Source: Escherichia phage vB_EcoM_011D4. From it: a DNA stretch of 64,000 nucleotides. The notes beneath the pieces are model-generated. The model was not told the DNA's origin. It worked only from the letters and a program-made list of their open reading frames with translations, and searched no databases. The translations under genes and the position numbers were made by a program. The DNA lies in the sequence record MT478991.1; one strand, 5' to 3'. Shown here one piece after another: positions 2,155-26,327 of the stretch; the stretch's first letter is position 1, and every line of letters begins with the position of its first letter.

Positions 2155-2169
2155 AATATAAACCTCTCA

Positions 2170-2529: not shown

Positions 2530-2536
2530 ATATTCC

Positions 2537-3127: not shown

Positions 3128-3212
3128 TAATTTCTCCTGTTTGGCTTAACTTTCTGATTCCATAATATAGCCCTATCACCAGAAAGTCAAGCATTATTTT
3201 AACCAATTTCCA

Positions 3213-3635
3213 TTATTGGTCTACTTTCAAAACAACCGCCGACATTTTACCCGCCAGTCGTTTTGGATTCTCTATAATCATTCGGCAGCATAGACCGTGA
3301 TACGGCTTACCCTCTTCGATTAGATCTACTGTCATCCCGATCCACATGTTACCGTCAGTAATTTCTAATCGATTAGGTCTGTCTTCCATTTTCAGGAAGT
3401 CGAAGATCTCCGGCAAACGAGTTTCTATCTTATTGAATAGTTCCATTGTCTTATGTTCATCGATATGACGATCGGTTAGACGGTCGATCATATGCGGACT
3501 AAAGCGAATGAAAATATACTCACCATAACCATCATTCAAGCACTTTTCTTTGATCTGTGCATTGGTTTTGCGCATTTCGGTTTCGAAGAATCTACGCAGC
3601 TTACTACGGCGAACATGTACGTTAATTGTTTCCAT
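3213..3635 (-). CDS. hypothetical early protein (regB position by synteny; assignment tentative)
   Basis: ORF track gives 3213..3677; an internal Met (METINVHVRRSKLRR) preceded by AAGGA is the likelier start; size and position relative to tk resemble T4 regB but the sequence could not be verified. Confidence 0.4.
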   Translation of the reverse strand: METINVHVRRSKLRRFFETEMRKTNAQIKEKCLNDGYGEYIFIRFSPHMIDRLTDRHIDEHKTMELFNKIETRLPEIFDFLKMEDRPNRLEITDGNMWIGMTVDLIEEGKPYHGLCCRMIIENPKRLAGKMSAVVLKVDQ

Positions 3636-3639
3636 TTTA

Positions 3640-3975
3640 TTATCCTTTCTTAAACAAATTGCGAAGCCAGTATACAAACGGGATTTCTTTAAACTTGAAT
3701 TTCTCGATAGTTAATTCTTTAGTAGCAAGATGAATACCATAAGCATCATGTGTCACGATATGCCATTTTCTATAGTCCAAATGTGAACAACCGTCTGGAT
3801 CTAGGTTAATAAGAGTTTCTCGCTCACTAGGATTATTTTTCCACAATTTTGTAATAGGATCGCACATAATTCGACCTAGCGTACCATGAATAATCTCACA
3901 ACGGTAAAGTTTTCCAGCAGTGAGATAGGCGCACCCGTCATAGTCGGTATAAACAAACACTTCTTTAACACTCAT
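3640..3975 (-). CDS. hypothetical protein, member of tandem paralog family (DGCSHL motif)
   Basis: 111 aa; shares (D/G)GCSHL and aromatic-rich motifs with the next two ORFs; own early promoter upstream. Confidence 0.5.
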   Translation of the reverse strand: MSVKEVFVYTDYDGCAYLTAGKLYRCEIIHGTLGRIMCDPITKLWKNNPSERETLINLDPDGCSHLDYRKWHIVTHDAYGIHLATKELTIEKFKFKEIPFVYWLRNLFKKG

Positions 3976-4003
3976 TTTAATACTCCTTTGTTGTTTCGAT
4001 GGG

Positions 4004-4037
4004 GGTGTATATTACTACCCCCGTTTTGTTGTGTCAA
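4004..4037 (-). promoter_or_regulatory. early sigma70-type promoter with stem-loop (PeSL-like)
   Basis: minus strand reads TTGACA-17 nt-TAATAT; inverted repeat GGGGGT/ACCCCC spans the -10; followed by leader and AGGAG. Confidence 0.5.
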
Positions 4038-4298
4038 CTACTTTTTCAAGATTTTTTTGAGTGCATTCCAAAGACCTTTATTCTCAGGTTGTTTTGGTTC
4101 TTCGATCAGTGTCCACGGACGGTCGTCTAAGTATGCACAGCTTTTCAGAGAAATAAAAAGTTTATATCCTTGATCATCTTTGATGTAACCGTAGGTAGAC
4201 ATTCTTTCATCTGGCGTAAACTTATACAGTTTATTTGGGGTGATGTAAGATCTACTACTATAAGGTGTCATCACATACATCATGGTACTAACTCCCAT
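4038..4298 (-). CDS. hypothetical protein, tandem paralog family
   Basis: 86 aa; motif TPxKLYKFTP ... GYIxDD ... paralogous to 4280..4474. Confidence 0.45.
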   Translation of the reverse strand: MGVSTMMYVMTPYSSRSYITPNKLYKFTPDERMSTYGYIKDDQGYKLFISLKSCAYLDDRPWTLIEEPKQPENKGLWNALKKILKK

Positions 4299-4474
4299 TT
4301 ATCACCGCGAAGATGAGAACATCCACCATCAAGAAGGATCGTAATACGAAACCCCACATCATCTTCAATATACCCGATAGTCGGTGGATGTTCGTCGTCT
4401 CGTGCCGGGGTAAAATCATACATCTTTCCCGGTGTGATATCATTGCCTTTATTGCTATTGGTATAAACTTGCAT
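4280..4474 (-). CDS. hypothetical protein, tandem paralog family
   Basis: 64 aa; motifs TPGKMYDFTP, GYIEDD, GGCSHL shared with neighbours. Confidence 0.45.
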   Translation of the reverse strand: MQVYTNSNKGNDITPGKMYDFTPARDDEHPPTIGYIEDDVGFRITILLDGGCSHLRGDKWELVP

Positions 4475-4495
4475 TTTCTTAATCTCCTATATTAA

Positions 4496-5194
4496 CTAAC
4501 CACGGGTATAGTGTTCCAGAACAACTGTCAGATGAATATATTCTAATAGATCTTTCCAAAAGTCAACATCTGGTTCTTCCGGCATACCGTTTTTCTTTGC
4601 CTCTTCACGCGCGAGTTTAACACGCTCGTAGAGATCTTTCAATTCTTCCCGCACATTATCAAAGGTTCTTTCTCCTAACTTACACGCTAAAATAGAAGAA
4701 CGTCGCGCGAGCGGGAATTGTAGATCACCAGTTTGATAGATTTCAAGTAGCTGATAACCAACACGCAGAGCATGAGAAAGATCTTTCCAGTTACTGAAAT
4801 ACTTTTCAGATTTTGTTACCTGTTTCTTGAGATAACCAGACAAACCCCACATACCAACATGATAGAATTTATCGCGATGTGTTCGGATGTATTCCCATTC
4901 TCTGGAGGATTCAACCAACATGTTACTAGGCGCGTGCACCATGTCAATAGCGCCGATATCGCCTTTACATGCCAGATTGATAAACCGTTTTAGACTGAAC
5001 ATATTAACATCAATATCGTCTTTGGTGTTCTTGATACCTTGACCGCTAGTGCTTTGGTCATAGTGTTCTTTCATCGATCCTAAGATAATTTCTTTAGCAG
5101 TCGGAACAAAGATACCACGATAATCTTTATCTGAATTTTCAGTATCAAGGCCGTACAAGTGAGATCCGAAGACCATTTTAACCATTGTATGCAT
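4496..5194 (-). CDS. predicted nucleotidyltransferase (minimal pol-beta-like fold)
   Basis: 232 aa; N-terminal GSHLYGLDTENSDKDYRGIF matches the GS ... D.D nucleotidyltransferase motif. Confidence 0.5.
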   Translation of the reverse strand: MHTMVKMVFGSHLYGLDTENSDKDYRGIFVPTAKEIILGSMKEHYDQSTSGQGIKNTKDDIDVNMFSLKRFINLACKGDIGAIDMVHAPSNMLVESSREWEYIRTHRDKFYHVGMWGLSGYLKKQVTKSEKYFSNWKDLSHALRVGYQLLEIYQTGDLQFPLARRSSILACKLGERTFDNVREELKDLYERVKLAREEAKKNGMPEEPDVDFWKDLLEYIHLTVVLEHYTRG

Positions 5195-5207
5195 AATTAA
5201 ACCCTCA

Positions 5208-5738
5208 TTAGTATTTTACGTTACGTCGAACGCCTTTTCGAATCTGACAAATAGCAGACGGTGAAACATTATATTTTCTTGCAAGTTCTACACCCTTCAT
5301 ATGGGGAGAAGATAAAATCTCTTCCACTTGGTCGTCGGTAAGTTTTGCGTTTCCGTGGTTCTCTCCCCAATTGTTGTTTAATCCTTCTTCCTTCGCATGA
5401 ACAAGATTTCGGGTATCTGTCGTCCATTCAAGATTATAAAGGTCATAGTTTTGTTTGTTTCCATCCTTATGATTAACTACACGGTAGTTATTTGGATTCG
5501 GAATAAACGCAACCGCCATAGCTTTATGCATGTTCACGGTTTTTCTAAATCCATCCGGCTTATAACATACTGTAAATTTAGAATAACCAGTTTTACCATA
5601 AACACTAATATAATTTCCGGTCTCTGTATTTCTAACCCTACCATGAGAGCTAATCTCAAATTGAGTGTAGGGCAACAGCGCATCAATCACTTTCCATTCT
5701 TCGACAGGATGGTCATCACAATATCTTTTAATCATCAT
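5208..5738 (-). CDS. HNH homing endonuclease (NUMOD4 + HNH + C-terminal HTH)
   Basis: 176 aa; FEISSHGRVRN (NUMOD4-like), NHKDGNKQNYDLYNLEW (HNH), C-terminal ARKYNVSPSAICQIRKG HTH. Confidence 0.8.
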   Translation of the reverse strand: MMIKRYCDDHPVEEWKVIDALLPYTQFEISSHGRVRNTETGNYISVYGKTGYSKFTVCYKPDGFRKTVNMHKAMAVAFIPNPNNYRVVNHKDGNKQNYDLYNLEWTTDTRNLVHAKEEGLNNNWGENHGNAKLTDDQVEEILSSPHMKGVELARKYNVSPSAICQIRKGVRRNVKY

Positions 5739-5754
5739 ATCACCTCATAAAAAT

Positions 5755-5785
5755 AAAGCCAACCCTTTCGGATTGGCTTAAAAAA
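5755..5785 (-). terminator. hairpin terminator downstream of GrcA-like gene
   Basis: inverted repeat aagccaa / ttggctt followed on the minus strand by a U-run. Confidence 0.45.
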
Positions 5786-6202
5786 TTACATTGCTTCCGT
5801 AAAGGTGCGCGAAATAACGTCACGTTGTTGGTCTGGAGTCAGACTATTGAATCTTACGGCATATCCGCTAACGCGAATGGTTAGTTGCGGATACTTATCA
5901 GGATTAGCAACCGCATCAAGAAGAAGATCGCGACTCATCACATTGATATTCGCGTGCTGACCACCTTCGACAACCGGAGCACCATTATCTACAATGACAG
6001 GACGGAAGCTAGTTGTGTGTAGTGCCAGCGAATCGACGTCTTCTGCGGTGATCACATGGTCTTCTGCGAAAGTTTTACTAACAATTACTTTAGCGCCGAT
6101 CAGTGCTTTCGGTTCGGATACCAGAATCATAGGCGCGAAGTGTCCACCAATAATAGTACCTTTATGCTCACCTTTCATGATTTGAATTGCTTTAAATTCC
6201 AT
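5786..6202 (-). CDS. autonomous glycyl radical cofactor (GrcA/YfiD-like)
   Basis: 138 aa; C-terminus [32 protein letters not shown] carries the glycyl-radical signature RVSGYA and closely resembles E. coli GrcA as recalled. Confidence 0.8.
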
Positions 6203-6337
6203 AATTCACCTCTTATAGATCAGGACGTTCGTCATTAATTTTACCAACCAAAACACCATAGAGTTTATCAGGTTGGACTTTGCGATTCTTTTTAATTGTA
6301 GCACGGAATCGACGTGCTACGCTATCTTTATTTTTCA

Positions 6338-6823
6338 TCAGTTGATACCTAAGCCAATGAAAATAGGTTGGTCTTCTACATTACCCATCCCAACACTAAG
6401 TCGATTTACTTCTAAAAACTGCAATACGCTGTCAGTAAATCCGCGCATGGTAGTATCTAGGATAAAAATTGTTTTGTCAAGACTACGACCTCGCCATGTG
6501 ATCGGATTCAGGAAAGTTCGGATAGACGTACAATCTACATTTGAAATATTTACATTTTCACCGCGACCGCGATCTCGGATCGTTTTGGCATGTTCCCGCG
6601 TCGTTGAAACGATAAAGACACTATAGCCTTTTCGCGTATAATGGTCATATAACTTGATTGTAGCGTCTGTATGCCCTGTCTGACGGCCTAAATTGATTGA
6701 GACGATGGAATCTAGGTCATCAGCAAAATTGCGTCGTTTACGGCGTTCTATGATGCCATTTACGGCAGAAATACACGCAGCATAAATCAAATCTTTACTT
6801 TCTAATTTTACATCAATATTCAT
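6338..6823 (-). CDS. hypothetical protein
   Basis: 161 aa; no confident motif (GRQTGHTD is not a canonical Walker A). Confidence 0.45.
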   Translation of the reverse strand: MNIDVKLESKDLIYAACISAVNGIIERRKRRNFADDLDSIVSINLGRQTGHTDATIKLYDHYTRKGYSVFIVSTTREHAKTIRDRGRGENVNISNVDCTSIRTFLNPITWRGRSLDKTIFILDTTMRGFTDSVLQFLEVNRLSVGMGNVEDQPIFIGLGIN

Positions 6824-6885
6824 GGTAAAGTCTCCAGTGAACGGGGAGAGATCCTTAGATTGTCTCCCCGTTGATGGTTAATATT

Positions 6886-7275
6886 TTATTTTGGATCTTG
6901 GTATTTGCTGTGTGGTAATTGTAGATGAGGACCATCTTTAAAACTAGTCCAATCCCCACCCCATTCAACAGGAACACCCAATTCTCGGCCAGCTTGTTTA
7001 AATGCATCAGCGATCATGCGGTAATATTTCATATTCCATGTATCCTTATCTTTCGGATACGCTACAACGTCAACCGCGAAACCGTGAAGATGACGAGATT
7101 TCATAGTCTTAGATTTACCTTCCGCAACATATTTCTTTTGCGTTGCGAGACTACGCACACCTTCTGTAATACCAAAATCGACCGGAGTCAGTTCTAACGC
7201 ACGATGAACGACTTTTACCAGGTCAGGATGCACACCAACAAGCCGATCTTTGCTTCTTTGAGATAATTTAAACAT
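6886..7275 (-). CDS. endolysin, peptidase M15 (VanY/L-Ala-D-Glu peptidase-like)
   Basis: 129 aa; zinc-ligand motifs SRHLHGFAVD and WGGDW ... DGPHLQL typical of M15 peptidoglycan peptidases; sits at the T4 e position. Confidence 0.75.
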   Translation of the reverse strand: MFKLSQRSKDRLVGVHPDLVKVVHRALELTPVDFGITEGVRSLATQKKYVAEGKSKTMKSRHLHGFAVDVVAYPKDKDTWNMKYYRMIADAFKQAGRELGVPVEWGGDWTSFKDGPHLQLPHSKYQDPK

Positions 7276-7303
7276 TATTCACCCCCTTTGTGAGTGATAA
7301 TAT

Positions 7304-7495
7304 TTAGATTCCGGTGATCCTGCATAGAGTTCTTGTATTAGCACCAATCAGGATCGCATTAACTACAACCATTCCCCAATCAACCCACGGATTATTATAA
7401 ATGCTAAATCCGTTTGAAAGACCAAATACAAGCATTCCGGTACACATACTCAGAGCAATAATCAACATCACGGTAAAACCAAATGCAAATCTCAT
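7304..7495 (-). CDS. small hydrophobic membrane protein
   Basis: 63 aa, predominantly hydrophobic. Confidence 0.4.
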   Translation of the reverse strand: MRFAFGFTVMLIIALSMCTGMLVFGLSNGFSIYNNPWVDWGMVVVNAILIGANTRTLCRITGI

Positions 7496-7496
7496 G

Positions 7497-7763
7497 TTAT
7501 TTTCCTTTTCTCTGTTTACGTTTATAAAAGTAATACATTACCTCATCGCGTCCGGTGATCCAACATGCTAGGGCGGTAAACAGGTTTACAATTCCCAACA
7601 CTCCTACTGACGCGGCGCTGTCAACAGACATAGGAACAGTAAAGGCCATAGCTAACATAGCAACGCCACAAATGACATTAAGCACCATTATAATAAGACC
7701 GAAGAAAACCATTGTCAATCCTCCCAAATAAGAAAACCAACAATCACGCCAGTGATAAGACAT
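7497..7763 (-). CDS. small hydrophobic membrane protein
   Basis: 88 aa, two hydrophobic segments, basic C-terminus. Confidence 0.4.
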   Translation of the reverse strand: MSYHWRDCWFSYLGGLTMVFFGLIIMVLNVICGVAMLAMAFTVPMSVDSAASVGVLGIVNLFTALACWITGRDEVMYYFYKRKQRKGK

Positions 7764-7906
7764 GATGCGCCGCTAATAAGACAACCCGCGCCAAGTGATT
7801 CCCACCAGATCAGGGAAGCGACAATAACACAGAATCCCCAGACTACCGCAATCACAACATAGGCAAGGGTCGCCCAAAACATATATTTGTTCATAATAAA
7901 CCACAT
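7715..7906 (-). CDS. small hydrophobic membrane protein
   Basis: 63 aa; hydrophobic; overlaps neighbours in a tight chain. Confidence 0.35.
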   Translation of the reverse strand: MWFIMNKYMFWATLAYVVIAVVWGFCVIVASLIWWESLGAGCLISGASCLITGVIVGFLIWED

Positions 7907-8079
7907 TCACCAAACAAATAAGAAAAAAGCCATATCAACAGAAACGAGGCAATTGATCCGGCAAGCAAAATGATATTAGAGAATCCACCGTCTATCCAGG
8001 CAACAAAACAGAATACGCTAGTATAGAAGCATAAACCCATTACAAAGCATACTATAAGCAACCATAGATAAAACGCCAT
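7891..8079 (-). CDS. small hydrophobic membrane protein
   Basis: 62 aa; hydrophobic. Confidence 0.35.
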   Translation of the reverse strand: MAFYLWLLIVCFVMGLCFYTSVFCFVAWIDGGFSNIILLAGSIASFLLIWLFSYLFGECGLL

Positions 8080-8140
8080 AGAAAGCCCTCCAGCGAGATA
8101 AATTAGTGCGGGTAGTACATTACCCTACCCGCATTGTTAA

Positions 8141-8299
8141 TCATCGCAGAGCGTGTTCTAGAACGATTCCAAACCATCCACAAACAACGCCCACACAGAC
8201 AGCGACCAGCAGATTCATTCTCTCTTTAGGGATCACAGCAATCATAACAACAACCATACAGAAAGCCATCACCATTGAAGTTAACATTTGTTCAACCAT
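8141..8299 (-). CDS. small hydrophobic membrane protein (52 aa, below ORF-track cutoff)
   Basis: hand translation MVEQMLTSMVMAFCMVVVMIAVIPKERMNLLVAVCVGVVCGWFGIVLEHALR; AAAGGTG upstream of ATG; preferred over opposite-strand ORF 8106..8321. Confidence 0.35.
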   Translation of the reverse strand: MVEQMLTSMVMAFCMVVVMIAVIPKERMNLLVAVCVGVVCGWFGIVLEHALR

Positions 8300-8301
8300 T
8301 A

Positions 8302-8640
8302 TCACACCTTTAAAGTCATAGACGCATAAACATTAATGCCAGGCCAGTTAGGATCGCAATTATACTCAACATCCCACAAATAAAGCGGTTTAGATGTATC
8401 AGCCAAGTTTTTAAAATCTTCTACCCACATTTCAATGCTATATGATGGATAAACTAGGCTGTCATATCCTCCGTAACGTTGGCCTACTGGTCGGTCAGTA
8501 AAAACTACATCAAGATCCGGTAATTCTTTTTCAAGGATAACCGCCAGCGCATAAATCAGACGGTCTTCCTTGTTACGCTGCCGAAGGACCGTTGTCAGTT
8601 GGTTTTTCCGGTTCACTAGCAAGCACCTCCACATTTTCAC
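8302..8640 (-). CDS. hypothetical protein
   Basis: 112 aa ORF; 68-nt overlap with upstream ORF, true start uncertain. Confidence 0.4.
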   Translation of the reverse strand: MKMWRCLLVNRKNQLTTVLRQRNKEDRLIYALAVILEKELPDLDVVFTDRPVGQRYGGYDSLVYPSYSIEMWVEDFKNLADTSKPLYLWDVEYNCDPNWPGINVYASMTLKV

Positions 8641-8893
8641 AGAATGAAATTTTCACAGACACAATTTTACCATAAGTGAAGAATGAATATACGTTATCGA
8701 TATATTCAACGTCACCTACAATCACATCAAACTGCGGATCAGCAACCGCCGCAACATATTCTACCAGTTCATCAAGAGAATGCAACTTAATTTCATCAAT
8801 TCGGCTGTATTTGGTTGCATCTTTGATTTTAAAACCACGTTGTTTCAGCTTATCAATTAGAATTTCACGCGGAGTTTCAAACAGTTTGCTCAT
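8573..8893 (-). CDS. hypothetical protein
   Basis: 106 aa ORF. Confidence 0.4.
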   Translation of the reverse strand: MSKLFETPREILIDKLKQRGFKIKDATKYSRIDEIKLHSLDELVEYVAAVADPQFDVIVGDVEYIDNVYSFFTYGKIVSVKISFCENVEVLASEPEKPTDNGPSAA

Positions 8894-8914
8894 AATATAA
8901 TCCTCACATTAAAT

Positions 8915-9115
8915 CTAAAATTTGTTAACGACGAATTGCATAATTAGACTAATCACAAACATTGCAAACCAAGTATAAATGCAACAGATAAAAGCTACAT
9001 ACAATTCAATCTGGTCAGAGAATACACCGGGTAAAAGCATTAGCAAAATAACAACAGTAAAGAAGCTAGCGATACCCGCAACAAAACCAATATCATTTTT
9101 ACTAATCGTCATCAA
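8915..9115 (-). CDS. small membrane protein
   Basis: 66 aa, two hydrophobic helices. Confidence 0.4.
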   Translation of the reverse strand: MMTISKNDIGFVAGIASFFTVVILLMLLPGVFSDQIELYVAFICCIYTWFAMFVISLIMQFVVNKF

Positions 9116-9309
9116 GTCACCGTTTTGTAAAGAAACACAATAAAATCCAAGACAAGAAAGACAGTGTAAATGATCATCGTCAAGACAGTAAACACTGTCA
9201 AATTTTCATCGTTAGTTAATTCATAGTCACCCATCCATACAATCACAAGATATAGCATTGAAAGAATGGAAGCACCTACGAAGTTAAAAACATATTCTTG
9301 AGCGTCATA

Positions 9310-9492
9310 TTAACAACCATCGCGGCTTAAGTCAACAGCAATTGCATACAGCATAATGAATATGCTAGCAGATCCAAGAATCAATACACCCTCACATTTT
9401 GAAACTCGCTCATCAAAATGTAACATTATCCATCCGAGGATGTTAAAGGCGCAGACCGCGCCTATGTTCGCTAACCAATTAATCTTTTTCAT
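9310..9492 (-). CDS. small membrane protein
   Basis: 60 aa, hydrophobic. Confidence 0.35.
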   Translation of the reverse strand: MKKINWLANIGAVCAFNILGWIMLHFDERVSKCEGVLILGSASIFIMLYAIAVDLSRDGC

Positions 9493-9500
9493 AATATACC

Positions 9501-9827
9501 TTAGAAAGAAACAGTTTTCAAGAAATCCAGATTTTCAGTACCGAAAACAGAAAAGTAGTGTTTTCCTTTTTCGGTTTTAGAGAAAGCGATTGTCTTCTCT
9601 ACATGGTGACGGAAGCCAGACAGACGATCACCCAGGTCAAGGCGGCAAGCGTAAGTAGTGCCGTTTTCGAAAGTAACCTCGATTTGAGTTTTGTCATATT
9701 CGCTTTCATAGGCTTTTTCTGCCGCTTCCAGTGCTTTACGCTCGAAGTCTTCGAAGTGGAATACTTCGTTTGCGTTAGCGAATACAGAAGATTCAGAGAA
9801 GATAACTTTAACAGATACTGGTTTCAT
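9501..9827 (-). CDS. hypothetical early protein
   Basis: 108 aa; AAGGAG 8 nt upstream of ATG and an early promoter immediately upstream. Confidence 0.5.
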   Translation of the reverse strand: MKPVSVKVIFSESSVFANANEVFHFEDFERKALEAAEKAYESEYDKTQIEVTFENGTTYACRLDLGDRLSGFRHHVEKTIAFSKTEKGKHYFSVFGTENLDFLKTVSF

Positions 9828-9864
9828 TTTGATACTCCTTAGTAGTTCGTGTTTCGTTTCGATG

Positions 9865-9898
9865 GGTGTATTATGCTATACACCCTCTCTCGTGTCAA
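9865..9898 (-). promoter_or_regulatory. early sigma70-type promoter with stem-loop (PeSL-like)
   Basis: minus strand TTGACA-17-CATAAT; inverted repeat GGGTGTA/TACACCC around the -10; conserved leader CCATCGAAACGAAACAC. Confidence 0.5.
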
Positions 9899-9906
9899 CA
9901 ACTTTT

Positions 9907-10095
9907 TTAGTCTTTTTTCATAATTTCTAGAGCAGTTTCTACCGCACCTTTCCAACCTTCCCACATAATGGACATAGTGATGAAGGTAAAGCACCCGCAG
10001 GAATCAGCCTTTTTAGAAATAAACCATTCTACAAACTCTTCGCTAATACCATGCTCTTTAGCGGATTCGCGTAATTGTTCAATTTTGTCTTCCAT
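9907..10095 (-). CDS. hypothetical small protein
   Basis: 62 aa ORF in ORFan cassette array. Confidence 0.4.
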   Translation of the reverse strand: MEDKIEQLRESAKEHGISEEFVEWFISKKADSCGCFTFITMSIMWEGWKGAVETALEIMKKD

Positions 10096-10104
10096 AGTAT
10101 CACC

Positions 10105-10305
10105 TCAACACTTAACGTTATTCAAACGATTTTGAAAGTACATATAGCAAGCATAATTTTGCTTTGGCTGTACCGTATCAGATAGACACGCTTTTGCAGC
10201 CTCGCGGTCCGATGGATCTACACCCTCAGCTTTAAGTAATGCTAAAATCTGGTTATAGCGTACTCTTAGCTGTACTAATGGTTTCTCTCCCATAAAACCC
10301 TCCAA
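10105..10305 (-). CDS. hypothetical small protein
   Basis: 66 aa ORF. Confidence 0.4.
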   Translation of the reverse strand: MEGFMGEKPLVQLRVRYNQILALLKAEGVDPSDREAAKACLSDTVQPKQNYACYMYFQNRLNNVKC

Positions 10306-10533
10306 TTAAAGTTGTTCTGCAATGTATGCGGTGCATTTGCGGAGTTTAGCCATAGCACCACCTTTCATGTCGCTTGCGCCTACAATGTTCATGATCTCTA
10401 AGCGATCAGCCGGATTCAGTCTAGTAGCCCAGATCTGGTTAGCCAGTTCCATTTTACCCATCTGCGGTTCCATCTCAAATAGTTCACGCTCAAAGTCGAT
10501 AATTTCTTTTGCTGCGTCTTTAAAGTTAATCAT
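10306..10533 (-). CDS. hypothetical small protein
   Basis: 75 aa; GGAG upstream; own early promoter. Confidence 0.45.
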   Translation of the reverse strand: MINFKDAAKEIIDFERELFEMEPQMGKMELANQIWATRLNPADRLEIMNIVGASDMKGGAMAKLRKCTAYIAEQL

Positions 10534-10557
10534 TTTGATTCTCCCGTTTCGTTGATG

Positions 10558-10591
10558 GTTGTATTGTAGGGGAGTTATCCTCCCCTGTCAA
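10558..10591 (-). promoter_or_regulatory. early sigma70-type promoter with stem-loop (PeSL-like)
   Basis: minus strand TTGACA-GGGGAGgataaCTCCCC-TACAAT; hairpin lies in the spacer. Confidence 0.5.
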
Positions 10592-10599
10592 CACTTTTA

Positions 10600-10785
10600 T
10601 CAGAAATATGCAATATAGTTTGCCAGTCCCACAGAGTCATCATTCGGCATTGCTTTTACTGCCAGTTCAAACCCTGCTTCAACTTTCTGTTTAGCGGATT
10701 CTTCGTTATAACCCCAGATTACCAGAATAGCTACTACGTTTTCTTTGCTTACTGCTTTCAGTGCTTTAGTGATGCGACGTGCCAT
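10600..10785 (-). CDS. hypothetical small protein
   Basis: 61 aa; GGAG upstream; own early promoter. Confidence 0.45.
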   Translation of the reverse strand: MARRITKALKAVSKENVVAILVIWGYNEESAKQKVEAGFELAVKAMPNDDSVGLANYIAYF

Positions 10786-10826
10786 AATTTGATTCTCCGT
10801 TTAAGAAAGTGTGTTTCGTTTCGATG

Positions 10827-10860
10827 GGTGTATTATGCTATAGGCCGGATCTGGTGTCAA
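10827..10860 (-). promoter_or_regulatory. early sigma70-type promoter (PeSL family, degenerate stem)
   Basis: minus strand TTGACA-17-CATAAT and the same conserved leader as the 9865 copy. Confidence 0.5.
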
Positions 10861-10884
10861 CAACTTTTTTAAAAAAATTTTAGG

Positions 10885-10912
10885 CAATAAAAAAGCCACT
10901 CCGAAGAGTGGC
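10885..10912 (-). terminator. rho-independent terminator (UUCG-type loop)
   Basis: minus strand AAGCCACTCTTCGGAGTGGCTT followed by a U-run. Confidence 0.55.
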
Positions 10913-11058
10913 TTATAGGGAAGGTAGCGAATCTTCCTTGTCTCCAACCTGCTAGCGGCCTAGCAAGTGAATGCTTTAGCGTACCGGATAGCCCACATAC
11001 GCTGTAATAAATGCGGCTAGGTGACGTCCAAATCATTCTAACCGCGCTGTCTTTAGTT
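10886..11058 (-). ncRNA. candidate small non-coding RNA (unknown family)
   Basis: about 170 nt between a late-promoter-like box and a strong terminator; several local hairpins; only ORF lacks a ribosome-binding site and would read through the terminator. Confidence 0.25.
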
Positions 11059-11063
11059 CACTA

Positions 11064-11282
11064 TTATTTATATCGCTTTCTCTCGCGACGTTTTTGATCT
11101 TCTTCCTTGATAGAGTTAAATGCATCAAAAAGACACATGACACTGATAATAAACATAACCGTATTTTCTACGATATCCCACGGCTTCGCATCAGTACAGA
11201 TCCCCCAAACGGTAAGAAATGCAAATAATGCAGAAGAGATCACAAGCATGATACTTGCTAAGATATAAAAAGTCATTTTCAT
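11064..11282 (-). CDS. small membrane protein
   Basis: 72 aa, hydrophobic core, basic C-terminus. Confidence 0.4.
   Translation of the reverse strand: MKMTFYILASIMLVISSALFAFLTVWGICTDAKPWDIVENTVMFIISVMCLFDAFNSIKEEDQKRRERKRYK
11065..11072 (-). promoter_or_regulatory. T4-type late promoter-like box (TATAAATA on minus strand)
   Basis: plus strand tatttata directly at the stop of upstream gene; no coding gene downstream before the terminator. Confidence 0.3.
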
Positions 11283-11473
11283 GGTTTTACCTCAATTCTT
11301 CGATATTCATCACACATCCACGCAGTAAGCAAGAATCCCAACACATAAGCAACAAAATACGTTAATGCTTCTTCTGGTTCCGTGCTATGTATCATCAGTA
11401 AACCAGCGAGAACAGTCTTAATAATTACATTTAAAATAATTAGCCACGCAAATAGTTTCATCGTATACCCCAT
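11279..11473 (-). CDS. small membrane protein
   Basis: 64 aa, hydrophobic. Confidence 0.4.
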   Translation of the reverse strand: MGYTMKLFAWLIILNVIIKTVLAGLLMIHSTEPEEALTYFVAYVLGFLLTAWMCDEYRRIEVKP

Positions 11474-11700
11474 TTCGGTCGAGTCTTTTCAAACTTATAC
11501 ATTCCGTAACAATCTCGAATCATCCACGTAACAAGAGCACCAGTCAACACAGACAACACACAGAAGAAGTAAAACGGTCCGGTTGCATTATCAACATGAG
11601 CAAGCCATGTAAAGAATACACATGCTAAGAATGTAAAGAACATCATAAAACACAAGAAAGCAAAATATTTTATGCTACTCATAGCGCCACCATACAACAA
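11458..11700 (-). CDS. small membrane protein
   Basis: 80 aa, hydrophobic. Confidence 0.4.
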   Translation of the reverse strand: MLYGGAMSSIKYFAFLCFMMFFTFLACVFFTWLAHVDNATGPFYFFCVLSVLTGALVTWMIRDCYGMYKFEKTRPKWGIR

Positions 11701-11785
11701 ATCATAAGAAACCCAAACGCAATTAGAATTGCATCAAATTTAGTGAACTCAGGTCCACCTATCAACATCATTCGTTCTATTTCGT

Positions 11786-12028
11786 TCATAGCGTACAAAG
11801 CCATTTAAAAGCACCACATAAAGCGAGCAGAATACTAGGTATAAACGAGACCATAACAAGTTTGCAAAAATCATCTAAGGTAACACCGGAATAGCTACCT
11901 ACTGTAACAACACCGATCATCAGACACAGAAAGAAAACAAATGCAATCATAAACAAAGTATTGCTAAACAGTTTAGTGATCATTAGACACCCCACGACGA
12001 TCAATTTCAAAAACTTTTTTACCATCAA
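11786..12028 (-). CDS. small membrane protein
   Basis: 80 aa, hydrophobic. Confidence 0.4.
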   Translation of the reverse strand: MMVKKFLKLIVVGCLMITKLFSNTLFMIAFVFFLCLMIGVVTVGSYSGVTLDDFCKLVMVSFIPSILLALCGAFKWLCTL

Positions 12029-12176
12029 CGAAGCATGTCACAACTGCCTCGTTGACTTCCGCAAATTGTTGTGTTACCCACTTAAGGTCAGAGCGAAACA
12101 ATGTTCTATTAATAACAAATGTTTTACCGCTCTTATCCTTACCCATAAATTTTGCTTTAACCATATCAAATTCCAT
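11973..12176 (-). CDS. hypothetical small protein
   Basis: 67 aa soluble ORF. Confidence 0.4.
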   Translation of the reverse strand: MEFDMVKAKFMGKDKSGKTFVINRTLFRSDLKWVTQQFAEVNEAVVTCFVDGKKVFEIDRRGVSNDH

Positions 12177-12185
12177 ATTATCACC

Positions 12186-12344
12186 TTATTTGCTAATCGC
12201 TAAACCCAATCCGAAGAGAGCACCCGACGCTACAGTATACCCGAAAGTTTCAAAGGCAGTAAAGATATCCAACCCACCAGCTAACAGAGTTGCAGTAAAC
12301 AGAGTACCAGCTACGAACATAAAAGTTTTACCGATAAATTTCAT
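12186..12344 (-). CDS. small hydrophobic peptide (52 aa, below ORF-track cutoff)
   Basis: hand translation MKFIGKTFMFVAGTLFTATLLAGGLDIFTAFETFGYTVASGALFGLGLAISK; GGAG upstream; early promoter just upstream. Confidence 0.35.
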   Translation of the reverse strand: MKFIGKTFMFVAGTLFTATLLAGGLDIFTAFETFGYTVASGALFGLGLAISK

Positions 12345-12370
12345 CTTGATTCTCCTTTCGTTTGTTTGTG

Positions 12371-12404
12371 GGGGTATCTTACTACCCCCGTTTCATGTTG
12401 TCAA
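12371..12404 (-). promoter_or_regulatory. early sigma70-type promoter with stem-loop (PeSL-like)
   Basis: minus strand TTGACA-17-TAAGAT; inverted repeat GGGGGTA/TACCCCC. Confidence 0.5.
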
Positions 12405-12410
12405 CTATTT

Positions 12411-12785
12411 TTAAGAATATTTTACTTCGTCTACAATGTCTTTCATGACATTGATTTCCATTCCGGTCAGAACACGTTGGAACATGTGCTGCACATACGC
12501 TTTCAGGTATTCATTTGATGGCTTGCTATCGAAAGTCTTTTTAGTGTAGTAGTCATCACCGAAAGCTACTGTAATTACATTTTCGTCGTCGTTCCAAGCG
12601 ATATAAGCAAATTTGCCGTTATCCCAGAAGCGAGCACTAATTGCTACTTTTGTTGAATCGAATCCTACTTCGCTGTGAGATTCAAGAACTACTTGCGTGC
12701 CAGTTTCTTTATGAATGTAGTAGCGGGATACTAAGTCAAAGTTACGGGTGTAGTGACATTCGAATTTATCTTTAAACATCATCAT
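12411..12785 (-). CDS. hypothetical early protein
   Basis: ORF track 12411..12854; start trimmed to the MMMFKD Met at 12785, which has GGAG upstream; the longer form would overlap its own promoter. Confidence 0.45.
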   Translation of the reverse strand: MMMFKDKFECHYTRNFDLVSRYYIHKETGTQVVLESHSEVGFDSTKVAISARFWDNGKFAYIAWNDDENVITVAFGDDYYTKKTFDSKPSNEYLKAYVQHMFQRVLTGMEINVMKDIVDEVKYS

Positions 12786-12817
12786 TTTGATTCTCCTAAG
12801 TGTGTTTCGTTTCGATA

Positions 12818-12851
12818 TGTGCATTATGCTATAGTCGTTTATGGTTGTCAA
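12818..12851 (-). promoter_or_regulatory. early sigma70-type promoter (PeSL family)
   Basis: minus strand TTGACA-17-CATAAT plus conserved leader. Confidence 0.5.
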
Positions 12852-12859
12852 CACATAAA

Positions 12860-12887
12860 AACAAAAAACCCCGAAAAATTTTCGGGG
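12860..12887 (-). terminator. rho-independent terminator
   Basis: hairpin ccccgaaaaattttcgggg followed on the minus strand by a U-run. Confidence 0.5.
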
Positions 12888-12894
12888 TATAAAA

Positions 12895-13365
12895 TTACAG
12901 TTTGGTCGTCCACTCCAGGTCTAGATCTTCGACATACTCATGAGATCGGACAATCTCTAAATCGAACTCTAGGTCAGTGCCAAATTTACGCGCACCAACA
13001 TCATAAGAAAGCGTGATATGCGGTACATATTCAGGATAATCCCACGTCGCACCTAAAGCAGTGCCGATATCGTGTCTGAATTGCATGTAGTCGCTTTCAA
13101 ATGCCAACACAAGCGCATTAGTACCGGATTGAGTTTCAAACACTTTCAGATGGCATAGAGAGCCTAAGAACTTCTCCCCTTCTTCTGGGATAAACGGAAC
13201 ATAGACACGAGAATATAAGATAGTGCTATGCAGTTTATCACGAGGAACAGCATTAGGCAGATCGTAGAACTCCTGCAATTTTTCAATGCGGTCTAGTGTA
13301 TCCTCAGTGAATTTAACCGCCGCATATGTACCTTTAACGGATTCTCGAAACGGGGTCATAATCAA
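12895..13365 (-). CDS. 2H phosphoesterase family protein (LigT-like; T4 57B position)
   Basis: 156 aa; two H-x-T/S-x motifs (HSTI and HITL) with spacing typical of 2H phosphoesterases. Confidence 0.5.
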   Translation of the reverse strand: MIMTPFRESVKGTYAAVKFTEDTLDRIEKLQEFYDLPNAVPRDKLHSTILYSRVYVPFIPEEGEKFLGSLCHLKVFETQSGTNALVLAFESDYMQFRHDIGTALGATWDYPEYVPHITLSYDVGARKFGTDLEFDLEIVRSHEYVEDLDLEWTTKL

Positions 13366-13628: not shown

Positions 13629-13654
13629 ATCTCCTACTTGTTGATAACTTTTTA

Positions 13655-14311: not shown

Positions 14312-14326
14312 TATATAATCCTCTTA

Positions 14327-14917: not shown

Positions 14918-15003
14918 TACTGATTCCTCAAATGAAAATATTTATTAACAATTGTCGCTTTGCGACGTGCCGGAGGCACTGACTATTTTTTAACCGAAAC
15001 AAA

Positions 15004-25971: not shown

Positions 25972-26000
25972 AAAGCCAATTCGAGAGAGTTGGCTTTTTC
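25972..26000 (+). terminator. rho-independent terminator after gene 8
   Basis: hairpin aaagccaa-10 nt loop-ttggcttt followed by a T-run. Confidence 0.55.
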
Positions 26001-26011
26001 TATTTTGGGTG

Positions 26012-26040
26012 TTGACAGTCTTGTCTGGTAAAGGTATAAT
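26012..26040 (+). promoter_or_regulatory. consensus sigma70 promoter (TTGACA-17-TATAAT)
   Basis: exact TTGACA at 26012-26017, 17-nt spacer, exact TATAAT at 26035-26040; about 30 nt upstream of the ORF at 26070. Confidence 0.7.
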
Positions 26041-26069
26041 GCTCACATCTAAACAACGGAGGATAAATT

Positions 26070-26327
26070 ATGGCACGTCGTAAATTTACAGATAATTGTG
26101 AAGCAATTCAGGTATCCCCTTGCGGTTGGGATGTGATCGCGAACGGTGAAAAGATCGGCGAGATCATCGATCATACTCATTCATCACTAGCCGATTACAC
26201 CGATGAACTATGGGAGGGTATCAACTTCATGAATGACACTAAACGATTCAAGACTATCGACGAAGCTATCTATTTTGTGTATAATCCAACTTTCGGTATG
26301 TGGGGAACTAGAAAATGGCACGCGTAA
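26070..26327 (+). CDS. hypothetical protein (first gene of inserted cassette)
   Basis: 85 aa; GGAGG upstream; no recognisable motif. Confidence 0.5.
   Translation: MARRKFTDNCEAIQVSPCGWDVIANGEKIGEIIDHTHSSLADYTDELWEGINFMNDTKRFKTIDEAIYFVYNPTFGMWGTRKWHA

What the first reader, a model, noticed from the sequence alone, without database searches (positions are those of the whole stretch)
4004..12851. Family of at least six near-identical early promoters with stem-loops and a shared leader
Six minus-strand sites (about 4004, 9865, 10558, 10827, 12371, 12818) share TTGACA, a 17-nt spacer, a -10 hexamer (TAATAT, CATAAT, TACAAT or TAAGAT) and in several cases an inverted repeat spanning the spacer or -10 (GGGGGT/ACCCCC, GGGGAG/CTCCCC, GGGTGTA/TACACCC), followed by a CCATCGAAACGAAACAC-type leader and a GGAG ribosome-binding site. 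Each precedes a small ORFan. This matches the promoter-early-stem-loop cassette architecture I recall being described for T4-type hyperplastic regions, and marks the 3.6-12.9 kb zone as a shuffling hotspot.
Basis: partly seen in the sequence, partly recalled or inferred. Interest (0 to 1): 0.45.

Follow-up and report, generated by a model that had tools for sequence, protein, structure and literature searches.

The report
Known early promoter cassettes (PeSLs)
The six sites are real but already described: they are the "promoter-early stem-loop" (PeSL) cassettes that drive small early genes in RB49-type relatives of phage T4.

Summary
The window comes from an RB49-like coliphage (genus Krischvirus). 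The region is 96-97% identical to Whisky, JSE, E26, Phi1 and RB49.

**Observation:** all six minus-strand sites exist, and each has TTGACA, a 17-nt spacer and a -10 hexamer. Four carry a significant G/C stem-loop in the spacer or over the -10. The other two sit just downstream of ordinary intrinsic terminators. All six share an A/C-rich leader that starts at the predicted +1, and a GGAGWATYAAR Shine-Dalgarno block.

**Identity:** they are orthologues of six early promoters already predicted in RB49 (Nolan 2006) and annotated as promoters in GEC-3S. They belong, by sequence, to the PeSL family of Arbiol et al. 2010. A profile built from the six finds 41 sites in an RB49-type genome, including two assayed PeSLs.

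**Corrections:**
- "Near-identical" is overstated: pairwise identity is 51-77%.
- In 11 relatives, none of the four indel sites in this zone lies at a PeSL. The five downstream genes searched are in all 58 Krischvirus records.

**Small additions:**
- The Shine-Dalgarno block fits the RegB/S1 cleavage consensus, and regB lies in the window.
- The PeSL modules are mosaic.
- One cassette gene, with its -10 and leader, recurs in T1-like phages.

**Verdict:** already known, low interest.

The parts
12783..12894 (-). PeSL P125, between the stop codon of 57B/acb1 and the ATG of ORF125. Terminator hairpin 12868-12888; -35 at 12846-12851; -10 at 12823-12828; predicted +1 at 12816 (ATCGAAACGAAAC); GGAGAATCAAA at 12786-12796; ATG at 12783-12785.
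   Evidence: orthologue of RB49 Pe:60694
12411..12785 (-). ORF125 (124 aa, unknown function), the only gene between P125 and P124.
   Evidence: present in 58 of 58 Krischvirus records and in no other phage record
12342..12410 (-). PeSL P124. -35 at 12399-12404; -10 TAAGAT at 12376-12381; stem-loop GGGGGTA/TACCCCC at 12370-12389, overlapping the -10; predicted +1 at 12369; GGAGAATCAAG at 12345-12355; ATG at 12342-12344.
   Evidence: RB49 Pe:60244; the same hairpin is annotated as a putative terminator in G2248
10888..12344 (-). Transcription unit predicted from P124: ORF124 (52 aa), dmd (11973-12176), five small two-transmembrane ORFs, a structured 3' untranslated stretch (10915-11063) and the terminator at 10893-10914.
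10783..10887 (-). PeSL P117. AT-rich block; -35 at 10855-10860; -10 CATAAT at 10832-10837; predicted +1 at 10825; GGAGAATCAAA at 10788-10798; ATG at 10783-10785. There is no stem in the core; the terminator lies 33 nt upstream.
   Evidence: RB49 Pe:58699, the highest-scoring RB49 early promoter in this zone; its leader shares 34 exact nt with PeSL211/210
10600..10785 (-). ORF117 (61 aa, Pfam DUF7421), a single gene flanked by P117 and P116.
   Evidence: homologues at 72-80% amino-acid identity in T1-like Drexlerviridae
10531..10599 (-). PeSL P116. -35 at 10586-10591; stem-loop GGGGAG-GATAA-CTCCCC at 10569-10585, filling the spacer; -10 TACAAT at 10563-10568; predicted +1 at 10556; GGAGAATCAAA at 10534-10544; ATG at 10531-10533.
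   Evidence: RB49 Pe:58430; 47 exact nt shared with the RB49 PeSL at 117094-117190
9825..9906 (-). PeSL P113. -35 at 9893-9898; -10 CATAAT at 9870-9875; stem-loop GGGTGTAT/ATACACCC at 9864-9885 over the -10; predicted +1 at 9863; GGAGTATCAAA at 9828-9838; ATG at 9825-9827.
   Evidence: RB49 Pe:57746; 90% identical to P117 over 61 nt
9501..9827 (-). ORF113 (108 aa, Pfam LPD25). It is the first gene of a long run of small ORFs that continues through the endolysin, vs.8 and vs.6 to the terminator at 5756-5779.
3973..4037 (-). PeSL P095. The stop codon of ORF096 (4038-4040) abuts the -35 (4032-4037). -10 TAATAT at 4009-4014; stem-loop GGGGGT..ACCCCC at 4001-4022; GGAGTATTAAA at 3976-3986; ATG at 3973-3975.
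   Evidence: RB49 Pe:52389
3213..3975 (-). ORF095 (111 aa) followed by regB (3213-3635), whose own Shine-Dalgarno block is GGATAATAAAA (3635-3645). This is the transcription unit predicted from P095.
   Evidence: (PF10715, E 1e-48)
25974..26072 (+). Seventh family member, on the plus strand: terminator hairpin; -35 at 26012-26017; -10 TATAAT at 26035-26040; leader CACATCTAAACAACGGAGG; ATG at 26070. It precedes an island of unknown ORFs between baseplate genes 8 and 9.
   Evidence: (E 8e-5); RB49 Pe:73830

Best explanation
The six elements are PeSLs (promoter-early stem-loops), the composite regulatory cassettes of RB49-type T4-like phages. Each one occupies the whole gap between the stop codon of one gene and the start codon of the next. 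It reads as four modules.

1. **Upstream block.** An A/T-rich, UP-element-like stretch. In two cases it contains an ordinary intrinsic terminator.
2. **Promoter.** A near-consensus sigma-70 promoter: GTTGACA, a 17-nt spacer, then TAnnAT or CATAAT. Unmodified host RNA polymerase should use it immediately after infection. The start is predicted at the A that follows a C-rich tract.
3. **Stem-loop.** In four cases a G(n)-loop-C(n) hairpin lies in the spacer or across the -10. It ends at or before +1, so it is absent from the cassette's own transcript. It can form only in RNA that reads through from upstream, where it is proposed to attenuate or terminate that transcription and so insulate each unit.
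4. **Leader and ribosome-binding site.** A 23-40 nt, 70-93% A+C, weakly structured 5' leader, followed by GGAG(A/T)AT(C/T)AA(A/G) and ATG. I infer this last block has two roles. It is a strong Shine-Dalgarno site. It is also a target for the phage's own RegB endoribonuclease with ribosomal protein S1, so the first cistron would be expressed in an early burst and then switched off by cleavage inside GGAG.

Because about 40 copies share blocks of 20-47 identical bases, the cassettes also offer short homologies for recombination. That explains their mosaic make-up and is the published basis for gene shuffling.

**Shown here:** the anatomy, the statistics, orthology to predicted RB49 early promoters, homology to assayed PeSLs, and conservation in relatives.

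**Inferred:** activity of these six sites in particular, the RegB step, and the insulating role of the hairpins.
For: **Identity of the phage.** The region is 96-97% identical to Whisky, JSE, E26, Phi1 and RB49.

**Anatomy and statistics.**
- Sequence and layout.
- TTGACA-N17-TANNAT: 7 hits against 0.28 expected.
- GGAGWATYAAR: 6 hits against 0.39 expected, all at the six sites.
- Four core hairpins with z -3.2 to -4.8.
- Two upstream terminators.
- The 30 nt upstream of each -35 is 73-83% A+T, against 59% for the window.

**Already catalogued.**
- Six promoter features in GEC-3S.
- RB49 Pe:52389, 57746, 58430, 58699, 60244 and 60694 in Nolan 2006 Additional File 3.
- That paper states that the RB49 early consensus (G at -33, T or C at -12, C at -3 to -1) agrees with 5'-end mapping of early transcripts, and that RB49 has no MotA or middle promoters.

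**Family membership.**
- The PeSL definition, the five stem positions and the lacZ assays are in PMC2839356.
- The G(n)-loop-C(n) stems and TTGACA-N17-TATAAT for RB49/phi1 are in PMC4122927.
- The profile of the six finds 41 sites in a composite RB49-type genome, 40 of them on the early-transcribed strand.
- These include PeSL211/210 and PeSL206/205.
- Exact shared blocks of 47, 34 and 32 nt link the six to PeSLs elsewhere.
- 25 of the 41 cores fold at -8 kcal/mol or lower, against 7% of shuffles.

**Conservation.** All six PeSLs are present in 11 of 11 relatives. Hexamers are unchanged and stems differ at most by a single base. Most variation is confined to the non-stem part of the spacer.

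**RegB step.**
- The RegB/S1 site consensus is GGAGRAYARAA (PMC1702504). The six blocks match 9-10 of its 11 positions.
- regB is present (PF10715, E 1e-48).
- Its own GGAU Shine-Dalgarno site is the RB49 peculiarity described in PMC3014915 and sits at 3635-3645.
- 28 of the 35 genome-wide GGAG[AT]AT[CT]AA occurrences lie inside PeSL hits.
Against: - No transcript data exist for this phage or for these six sites. I found no Krischvirus start-site map in the paper library.
- The four in-promoter hairpins are followed on the minus strand by A/C-rich sequence, not a U-tract, so they fail the test for a classical intrinsic terminator. Terminator activity has been shown for only one PeSL stem, that of 211/210.
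- The RegB/S1 fit has a C at position 8, where the consensus prefers A. Predicted single-strandedness of the site is only 0.35-0.67.
- Conservation of the GGAG block could simply reflect common descent of the cassette rather than selection for cleavage.
- The recombination role is not visible locally. None of the four indel sites in this zone lies at a PeSL, and the five downstream genes searched are fixed in all 58 genomes.
Confidence: 0.9

Rival explanations
1. These are ordinary, independently maintained early promoters. They look alike only because sigma-70 binding, an UP element, an unstructured leader and a strong Shine-Dalgarno site all impose similar sequence. They are not related cassettes and play no part in gene shuffling.
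For: The cassettes are only 51-77% identical overall. All six are fixed, orthologous and unchanged in position in 11 relatives, and no indel breakpoint lies at any of them. A similar leader occurs in T1-like phages that have a different -35 block, which could reflect convergence on an optimal leader.
Against: Exact shared blocks of 32-47 nt include spacer and loop positions that carry no known promoter constraint. Promoter and leader modules occur in different combinations at different loci. One spacer allele of P095 in SSG23, phiS and Makalu002 (GCATGAAAC) is nearly the spacer of P124 (ACATGAAAC), which suggests copying between sites. Arbiol et al. sequenced recombinant mini-circle junctions inside PeSLs.
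Confidence: 0.08
2. The G/C hairpins are not attenuators of upstream transcription. They regulate the promoter they sit in. This could work in two ways. A palindromic operator could bind a phage or host protein that shuts early promoters off. Alternatively, the G/C-rich spacer and discriminator could tune open-complex stability.
For: The stems lie exactly between -35 and +1. They lack a U-tract on the transcribed strand. All six sites have a C two bases after the -10 and a C-rich -6 to -1 tract. From my own knowledge of rRNA promoters (Haugen et al. 2006), that feature gives short-lived open complexes; I did not test it here. RB49-type phages lack MotA and middle promoters, so some other means of early shut-off is plausible.
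Against: The stem sequence and position differ among members: GGGGGT, GGGGAG, GGGTGTAT or GGGGATC, in the spacer, over the -10 or upstream. That argues against one sequence-specific binding protein. Two of the six have no core stem at all. The one stem assayed reduced downstream lacZ as strongly as rrnB T1.
Confidence: 0.15
3. The inverted repeats act mainly on DNA. They would extrude as small hairpins or cruciforms in replicating or supercoiled DNA, be cut by a structure-specific nuclease such as endonuclease VII, and so create recombination hotspots. Transcription would be a secondary function.
For: The published model gives PeSLs a recombination role, and one mapped crossover lies in the loop of a stem-loop. 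Gene 49 (endonuclease VII) is present in RB49. Module mosaicism is observed.
Against: The stems are only 6-8 bp with 5-8 nt loops, which is short for cruciform extrusion (inference). No local indels lie at PeSLs. Promoter features are far better conserved than a pure recombination signal would need.
Confidence: 0.05
4. The conserved GGAGWATYAAR block is only a strong ribosome-binding site with optimal spacing, inherited along with the cassette. RegB does not act on it.
For: Position 8 is C rather than the preferred A. Two sites have U at position 5, and one ends in G. Predicted accessibility is moderate. The PeSL papers never mention RegB.
Against: The block matches 9-10 of 11 consensus positions. 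No site has a C at positions 5, 6 or 9, where Durand et al. report C as extremely rare or absent. regB is encoded directly downstream of one of these cassettes. [quoted passage not shown]
Confidence: 0.35

Closest known systems
PeSLs (promoter-early stem-loops) of coliphages RB49, phi1 and JSE (Arbiol, Comeau, Kutateladze, Adamia and Krisch 2010, Genome Biol Evol 2:140; PMC2839356)
   Same: Everything that defines the family: the phage genus; a TTGACA-N17-TAnnAT promoter; an AT-rich upstream block; a G(n)-loop-C(n) stem in one of the described positions; a Shine-Dalgarno site and start codon at the 3' end; intergenic placement ahead of small unknown genes in a hyperplastic region. There is also direct sequence homology to PeSL211/210 and to the profile-detected PeSL206/205.
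   Different: Nothing structural. These six particular cassettes were not among those assayed. In this zone they are not associated with gene gain or loss among the 11 relatives. The fit of the Shine-Dalgarno block to the RegB/S1 site is not discussed in the PeSL papers.
Predicted RB49 early promoters (Nolan, Petrov, Bertrand, Krisch and Karam 2006, Virol J 3:30; PMC1524935) and the promoter features in the GEC-3S GenBank record HE978309
   Same: The six sites are positional orthologues of Pe:52389, 57746, 58430, 58699, 60244 and 60694, and of six annotated -35/-10 pairs in GEC-3S.
   Different: Those catalogues record only the promoter, not the stem-loop, leader or Shine-Dalgarno modules.
PeSLs of other T4-like phages (PST/T4 and nt-1/KVP40; Comeau, Arbiol and Krisch 2014; PMC4122927)
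   Same: A composite terminator-promoter motif ahead of variable genes.
   Different: Those have other -35 hexamers (TTTACW, TTGYVH), other stem consensus sequences, and stems mostly upstream of the promoter.
T4 RegB/S1 target sites in early-gene Shine-Dalgarno regions (Durand et al. 2006; PMC1702504)
   Same: GGAG followed by a 7-nt A-rich tract. The consensus is GGAGRAYARAA; here it is GGAG(A/T)AU(C/U)AA(A/G), located at the ribosome-binding site of early genes, with regB present.
   Different: C or U at position 8. Cleavage at these sites has not been tested.
Integron attC-flanked gene cassettes (the analogy drawn by Arbiol et al.)
   Same: Short repeated elements flank small genes of unknown function, and circular intermediates are reported.
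   Different: There is no dedicated integrase. Each cassette brings its own promoter. Exchange is thought to use general homologous recombination.

Membership tests
PeSL (RB49/phi1 type) | Near-consensus sigma-70 promoter, TTGACA-N17-TATAAT-like | tested here: met
   Six of six have TTGACA and a 17-nt spacer, matching 10-11 of the 12 hexamer positions.
PeSL (RB49/phi1 type) | [quoted passage not shown] | tested here: met
   73-83% A+T in the 30 nt upstream of the -35, with A- and T-tracts; the window average is 59%.
PeSL (RB49/phi1 type) | Stable G(n)-loop-C(n) stem-loop in one of five positions (spacer, over the -35, over the -10, upstream AT-rich region, or downstream of the -10) | tested here: met
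   One lies in the spacer (P116) and three lie over the -10 (P124, P113, P095), with z -3.2 to -4.8. P125 and P117 have hairpins in the upstream region.
PeSL (RB49/phi1 type) | [quoted passage not shown] | tested here: met
   The stop codon lies 0-10 nt before the -35 in P095, P124, P116 and P113. All six end in GGAG plus a 7-9 nt spacer and ATG.
PeSL (RB49/phi1 type) | Lies in a hyperplastic region, immediately upstream of a small gene of unknown function | tested here: met
   The downstream genes are 52-124 aa and of unknown function. The zone matches only Krischvirus records, whereas the adjacent structural block matches other genera as well.
PeSL (RB49/phi1 type) | Sequence homology to published members | tested here: met
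   nhmmer with the profile of the six hits PeSL211/210 (E 6e-12) and PeSL206/205 (E 2e-9). Exact shared blocks reach 34 and 47 nt.
PeSL (RB49/phi1 type) | Strong promoter activity early in infection | not testable with these tools
   Literature only: lacZ fusions for PeSL206/205 and 193/192; the RB49 early consensus agrees with 5'-end mapping.
PeSL (RB49/phi1 type) | The stem-loop terminates or attenuates upstream transcription | not testable with these tools
   Shown only for the stem of PeSL211/210. G2248 annotators marked the P095 and P124 hairpins as putative terminators.
PeSL (RB49/phi1 type) | Mediates insertion, deletion or replacement of the flanked genes (indels bounded by PeSLs; mini-circles) | tested here: inconclusive
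   None of the four indel sites in window 1-15000 against 11 relatives lies at a PeSL. The five downstream genes searched are present in all 58 records. However, the modules are mosaic and one P095 spacer allele resembles P124.
RegB/S1 cleavage site | GGA(G/U) followed by a 7-nt A-rich tract (GGAGRAYARAA), with no C at positions 5, 6 or 9 | tested here: met
   9-10 of 11 positions match at all six sites. The deviations are C or U at position 8, U at position 5 (two sites) and G at position 11 (one site).
RegB/S1 cleavage site | Single-stranded context | tested here: inconclusive
   Mean predicted unpaired probability of the 11-mer is 0.35-0.67. The predicted mRNA 5' ends fold weakly, at -2.3 to -6.2 kcal/mol.
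RegB/S1 cleavage site | The phage encodes RegB | tested here: met
   Window 3213-3635 (-) matches PF10715 with E 1e-48.
RegB/S1 cleavage site | RegB-dependent cleavage inside GGAG in vivo | not testable with these tools
   No data exist for these sites.
Rho-independent terminator | G/C-rich hairpin immediately followed by a U-tract on the transcribed strand | tested here: not met
   Not met for the four in-promoter hairpins, which are followed by ACAAAC or ATCGAAAC. Met for the two upstream hairpins at 12868-12888 and 10893-10914.

The most novel reading that the evidence does not exclude
PeSL-type expression cassettes may not be confined to T4-like phages, and they may be exchanged between unrelated coliphage families.

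- ORF117, a single gene bracketed by P117 and P116, has homologues at 72-80% amino-acid identity in about 117 T1-like siphoviruses (Drexlerviridae).
- In phage vojen the similarity continues upstream of the gene through the leader and the -10. It matches window P117 at 20 of 23 positions and the RB49 PeSL at 119093-119182 at about 35 of 41.
- vojen itself carries at least 14 copies of a cassette with the same layout: a repeated upstream block, a spacer that often holds an inverted repeat, a CATAAT-like -10, a CATCGAAACGA-type leader and a Shine-Dalgarno site.

Taken together with the RegB/S1 fit of the Krischvirus Shine-Dalgarno block, each PeSL would be a portable unit that insulates, fires and then self-silences.
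Probability: 0.3. Interest if true: 0.45.

Novelty: already known. Interest (0 to 1): 0.15.

Why it matters
For this finding it matters mainly as a correct call. Nothing new needs to be claimed.

PeSLs themselves are of interest for three reasons:
- They show how T4-like phages give each newly acquired small gene its own insulated early promoter.
- They provide homology for gene shuffling.
- They mark the small early genes next to known counter-defence genes (Dmd and Acb1 are in this same zone), which makes those genes candidates for functional screens.

The side observations are cheap to test and would modestly extend the PeSL concept. They are the RegB/S1-type Shine-Dalgarno block, the shared cassette with T1-like phages, and a conserved structured 3' RNA.

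Tried and rejected
- **Known RNA families and tRNAs.** Rfam at gathering thresholds on the whole window and ARAGORN both found nothing. A permissive Rfam scan of 10700-11200 gave only sub-threshold sRNA hits, the best at 23.9 bits against a gathering score of 100.
- **Covariation in the stems.** Not possible, because the stems are almost unchanged in the 11 relatives.
- **PeSL-bounded indels.** Looked for and not found. The four polymorphic sites are:
  - a homing-endonuclease gene at 5208-5732;
  - an AP2/HNH ORF insertion site at 6902-6924;
  - a 395 bp versus 197 bp difference among paralogous membrane ORFs at 8910-9304;
  - a JK32-specific duplication of 7964-8227.
- **Apparent megablast breakpoint at 10871.** In phiS and SSG23 the best match ended next to P117. 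With blastn the alignment runs straight through, so this was only local divergence.
- **Loose RegB pattern.** GGAGRAYARAA with one mismatch is not enriched in the window as a whole: 14 hits against 9.2 expected. Only the cassette-specific form is enriched.
- **Literature.** I found no Krischvirus transcription-start data. The T1-like repeat strings matched only unrelated papers. Desplats et al. 2002 (PMC135041) is not held, so its 5'-end mapping is cited second-hand through Nolan 2006.
- **Short blastn of the P117 cassette.** Matches to other T4-like genera had E-values near 1 and were not used as evidence.

Full report
**What the window is.** The region 3500-13200 is 96-97% identical over about 95% of its length to Escherichia phages Whisky, JSE, E26, Phi1, GEC-3S and RB49. 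All 58 matching records are Krischvirus, the RB49-like T4-type myoviruses. In RB49 gene numbering the zone runs from regB and ORF095c to ORF125c and gene 57B, all on the minus strand.

**Checking the observation.**

The minus-strand sequence and a regular-expression scan show the six sites. TTGACA starts at 12851, 12404, 10860, 10591, 9898 and 4037. Each has a 17-nt spacer. The -10 hexamers are CATAAT, TAAGAT, CATAAT, TACAAT, CATAAT and TAATAT. I name the sites P125, P124, P117, P116, P113 and P095 after the RB49 gene each one precedes.

The pattern is well above chance:
- TTGACA-N17-TANNAT occurs 7 times in the window against 0.28 expected.
- The simple promoter scan ranks the six among its 10-11 of 12 matches.
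- An unbiased repeat search returns these elements as its top four direct-repeat families.

Four cores contain hairpins of -12.8 to -14.0 kcal/mol, with z -3.2 to -4.8 against shuffles:
- GGGGGTA/TACCCCC (P124) over the -10;
- GGGGGT/ACCCCC (P095) over the -10;
- GGGTGTAT/ATACACCC (P113) over the -10;
- GGGGAG/CTCCCC (P116) filling the spacer.

P125 and P117 have no core stem. Each lies 15-35 nt downstream of a textbook terminator, at 12868-12888 and 10893-10914.

The "leader" is real. ATCGAAACGAAAC is exact at three sites, and it begins at the position predicted to be +1. The ribosome-binding block GGAGWATYAAR occurs six times in 64 kb, exactly at these sites, against 0.39 expected.

The cassettes are 51-77% identical pairwise, not near-identical. 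Only four of the six carry the in-promoter inverted repeat.

**What they are.**

The six positions carry promoter, -35 and -10 features in the GEC-3S GenBank record. They map one-to-one onto Pe:52389, 57746, 58430, 58699, 60244 and 60694 in the list of 51 predicted RB49 early promoters of Nolan et al. 2006.

That paper reports an RB49 early consensus with G at -33, T or C at -12 and C at -3 to -1. All three features are visible here. [quoted passage not shown]

Arbiol et al. 2010 defined PeSLs in RB49 and phi1 as follows: a sigma-70 consensus promoter, an AT-rich upstream region, a stem-loop rich in G and C runs in one of five positions, and a Shine-Dalgarno site and start codon. There are about 51-52 per genome, mostly in hyperplastic regions ahead of ORFans. 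They tested promoter activity for PeSL206/205 and 193/192, and terminator activity for the stem of PeSL211/210. Comeau et al. 2014 give the RB49-type stem as G(n)-loop-C(n) and the promoter as TTGACA-N17-TATAAT.

Every structural criterion is met here (see the membership table). Membership is also shown by homology:
- An nhmmer profile built from the six finds a seventh site in the window, on the plus strand at 26001-26067.
- It finds 34 further sites in the rest of RB49, all on the minus strand and clustered in the known variable regions. They include PeSL211/210 and PeSL206/205.
- In a composite RB49-type genome there are 41 hits, 40 of them on the early-transcribed strand. Of the 41, 25 have a core hairpin of -8 kcal/mol or lower, against 7% of shuffles.

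**How it most likely works.**

The promoter should be read by unmodified host polymerase at the onset of infection. This follows from the consensus match and from the literature on the class.

In P124 and P113 the hairpin ends immediately before the predicted +1. In P116 it lies entirely within the spacer. In P095 it overlaps the predicted +1 by about two bases, because this window has a 2-nt insertion there. So the cassette's own mRNA lacks the complete hairpin. The structure can form only in RNA arriving from upstream. That fits the published attenuator/insulator idea.

These four stems are not followed by a U-tract, so they are not classical intrinsic terminators. How they act therefore remains open.

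The predicted 5' leaders are 23-40 nt long, 70-93% A+C and weakly folded.

The conserved GGAG(A/T)AT(C/T)AA(A/G) block matches 9-10 of the 11 positions of the RegB/S1 target consensus GGAGRAYARAA of Durand et al. 2006. Supporting context:
- regB is in the window (PF10715, E 1e-48), directly downstream of the P095 cassette.
- Its own Shine-Dalgarno site is the GGAU variant reported for RB49.
- 28 of the 35 genome-wide copies of GGAG[AT]AT[CT]AA lie inside PeSL hits.

I therefore infer that the first cistron of each unit is silenced by RegB cleavage after an early burst. Neither PeSL paper mentions RegB. The inference is untested, and the block's conservation could be inherited rather than selected.

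**The shuffling claim.**

I compared window 1-15000 with 11 relatives and found four polymorphic sites:
- 5208-5732: an HNH/NUMOD homing-endonuclease gene that is present, absent, or replaced by another HNH gene (Pfam match);
- 6902-6924: 23 bp here against a 644-bp insertion carrying an AP2/HNH ORF in five relatives;
- 8910-9304: 395 bp against 197 bp, within an array of paralogous membrane ORFs;
- 7964-8227: a duplication specific to JK32.

None of these is at a PeSL.

All six PeSLs are present in all 11 relatives. Their hexamers are unchanged and their stems differ at most by a single base. Most variation lies in the non-stem part of the spacer.

ORF113, ORF125 and ORF095 occur once in each of the 58 Krischvirus records and nowhere else in the phage collection. 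Within the genus, the neighbouring structural block is interrupted about as often as this zone. So these cassettes are not currently being gained or lost within the genus.

Exchange between cassettes is nevertheless visible:
- P116 shares 47 exact bases, spacer included, with the RB49 PeSL at 117094-117190, but has a different leader.
- P117 combines the promoter-proximal 32 bases of P113 with the 34-base distal leader of PeSL211/210.
- P095 has three spacer alleles among the relatives. One of them is nearly the P124 spacer.
- ORF116 has a divergent allele of about 74% amino-acid identity. Its divergent segment starts 30-70 nt inside the gene, just past P116.

At the between-genus scale the zone is variable: it matches only Krischvirus, while the structural block matches 124 records from several genera.

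**Side observations.**

- ORF117 (DUF7421) has homologues at 72-80% identity in about 117 T1-like siphoviruses.
  - In phage vojen the similarity extends upstream through the leader and the -10.
  - vojen carries at least 14 copies of its own promoter-like cassette with the same layout.
- The 179 nt between ORF118 and the terminator upstream of P117 (10888-11066, minus strand) fold to -60.3 kcal/mol (z -3.84).
  - They are 97-99% conserved in the relatives, with changes confined to one apical loop.
  - They match no Rfam family.
  - This is a candidate 3'-UTR-derived small RNA.

**Verdict.** The interpretation as PeSLs is correct. The feature is already known and catalogued in this phage group. 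Interest is low. The only mildly new points are the RegB/S1 fit, the module mosaicism documented here, the T1-like link and the conserved structured RNA.

Noticed in passing
window 10888-11066 (-): A 179-nt non-coding stretch lies between ORF118 and the terminator upstream of P117. It folds into three hairpins plus the terminator (-60.3 kcal/mol, z -3.84). It is 97-99% identical in 11 relatives, with changes confined to one apical loop, and matches no Rfam family at threshold. It is a candidate small RNA derived from the 3' end of the P124 operon.
   Followed up: partly
window 10600-10860 (-); L017 (phage vojen MN850569) 2478-2739 and at least 13 other sites: ORF117 (DUF7421) has homologues at 72-80% amino-acid identity in about 117 T1-like Drexlerviridae. 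In vojen the upstream -10 and leader (GCATAATAGCCTCATCGAAACGAGATTGAGGAAA) also resemble Krischvirus PeSLs. vojen has at least 14 copies of a cassette made of AATAGCACTTTTTGTTAAAAC, an inverted repeat, a CATAAT-like -10, an ACGAAAC-type leader and a Shine-Dalgarno site (16 motif hits against 2.7 expected). The cause could be cassette exchange between phage families or convergence on the same leader.
   Followed up: partly
window 5208-5738 (-): An HNH/NUMOD4 homing-endonuclease gene sits between nrdC.11 and vs.6. It is present in this phage, Whisky, JSE and phiS. A different HNH gene replaces it in JK32 and MIZ4. It is absent (16 bp instead of 525 bp) in RB49, Phi1, GEC-3S, SSG23, Makalu002 and G2248.
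   Followed up: yes
window 6840-6924 (-): Five relatives carry a 644-bp insertion (an AP2/HNH ORF) where this phage has 23 bp. Immediately downstream lies a promoter-less hairpin, GGGGAGA..TCTCCCC, preceded by ACCATCAACG, which resembles the P116 leader. It may be a PeSL remnant.
   Followed up: no
window 7304-9492 and 11064-11970 (-): Two arrays of very small ORFs (about 40-80 aa). Nolan et al. predict two transmembrane helices for most of their RB49 counterparts. One site (8910-9304) exists as a two-gene or a one-gene allele among relatives, which suggests unequal exchange between paralogues.
   Followed up: partly
window 12895-13359 (-) and 11973-12176 (-): Gene 57B matches the anti-CBASS nuclease Acb1 (PF23474, E 1.5e-51), and dmd (the antitoxin against RnlA/LsoA) is also present. 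The PeSL-driven unknown genes therefore sit among known counter-defence genes.
   Followed up: partly
window 10265-10504 (-): ORF116 exists in two allelic forms within the genus: 90% or higher, and about 74% amino-acid identity. The divergent DNA segment begins 30-70 nt inside the gene, just downstream of P116, while the flanks stay at 95-97% identity.
   Followed up: partly
window 3998-4025 and 12368-12391 (+): Read on the plus strand, the P095 and P124 hairpins are followed by T-rich tails and score as terminator-like. They might also stop antisense transcription.
   Followed up: no
window 4001-4022 and 12345-12355 (-): Changes specific to this phage: a 2-nt insertion in the P095 stem-loop region and an A-to-G change at the last position of the P124 GGAG block. 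Neither is seen in any of the 11 relatives.
   Followed up: yes
window 50424-50482, about 51037 (-) and 3162-3190 (-): Further sigma-70-like promoters with weaker similarity to the family. Two lie near hoc; RB49 Pe:98401 corresponds to one of them. A third, TTGACT-N17-TATTAT, lies ahead of vs.1, is annotated as a promoter in GEC-3S, and lacks the shared leader.
   Followed up: partly
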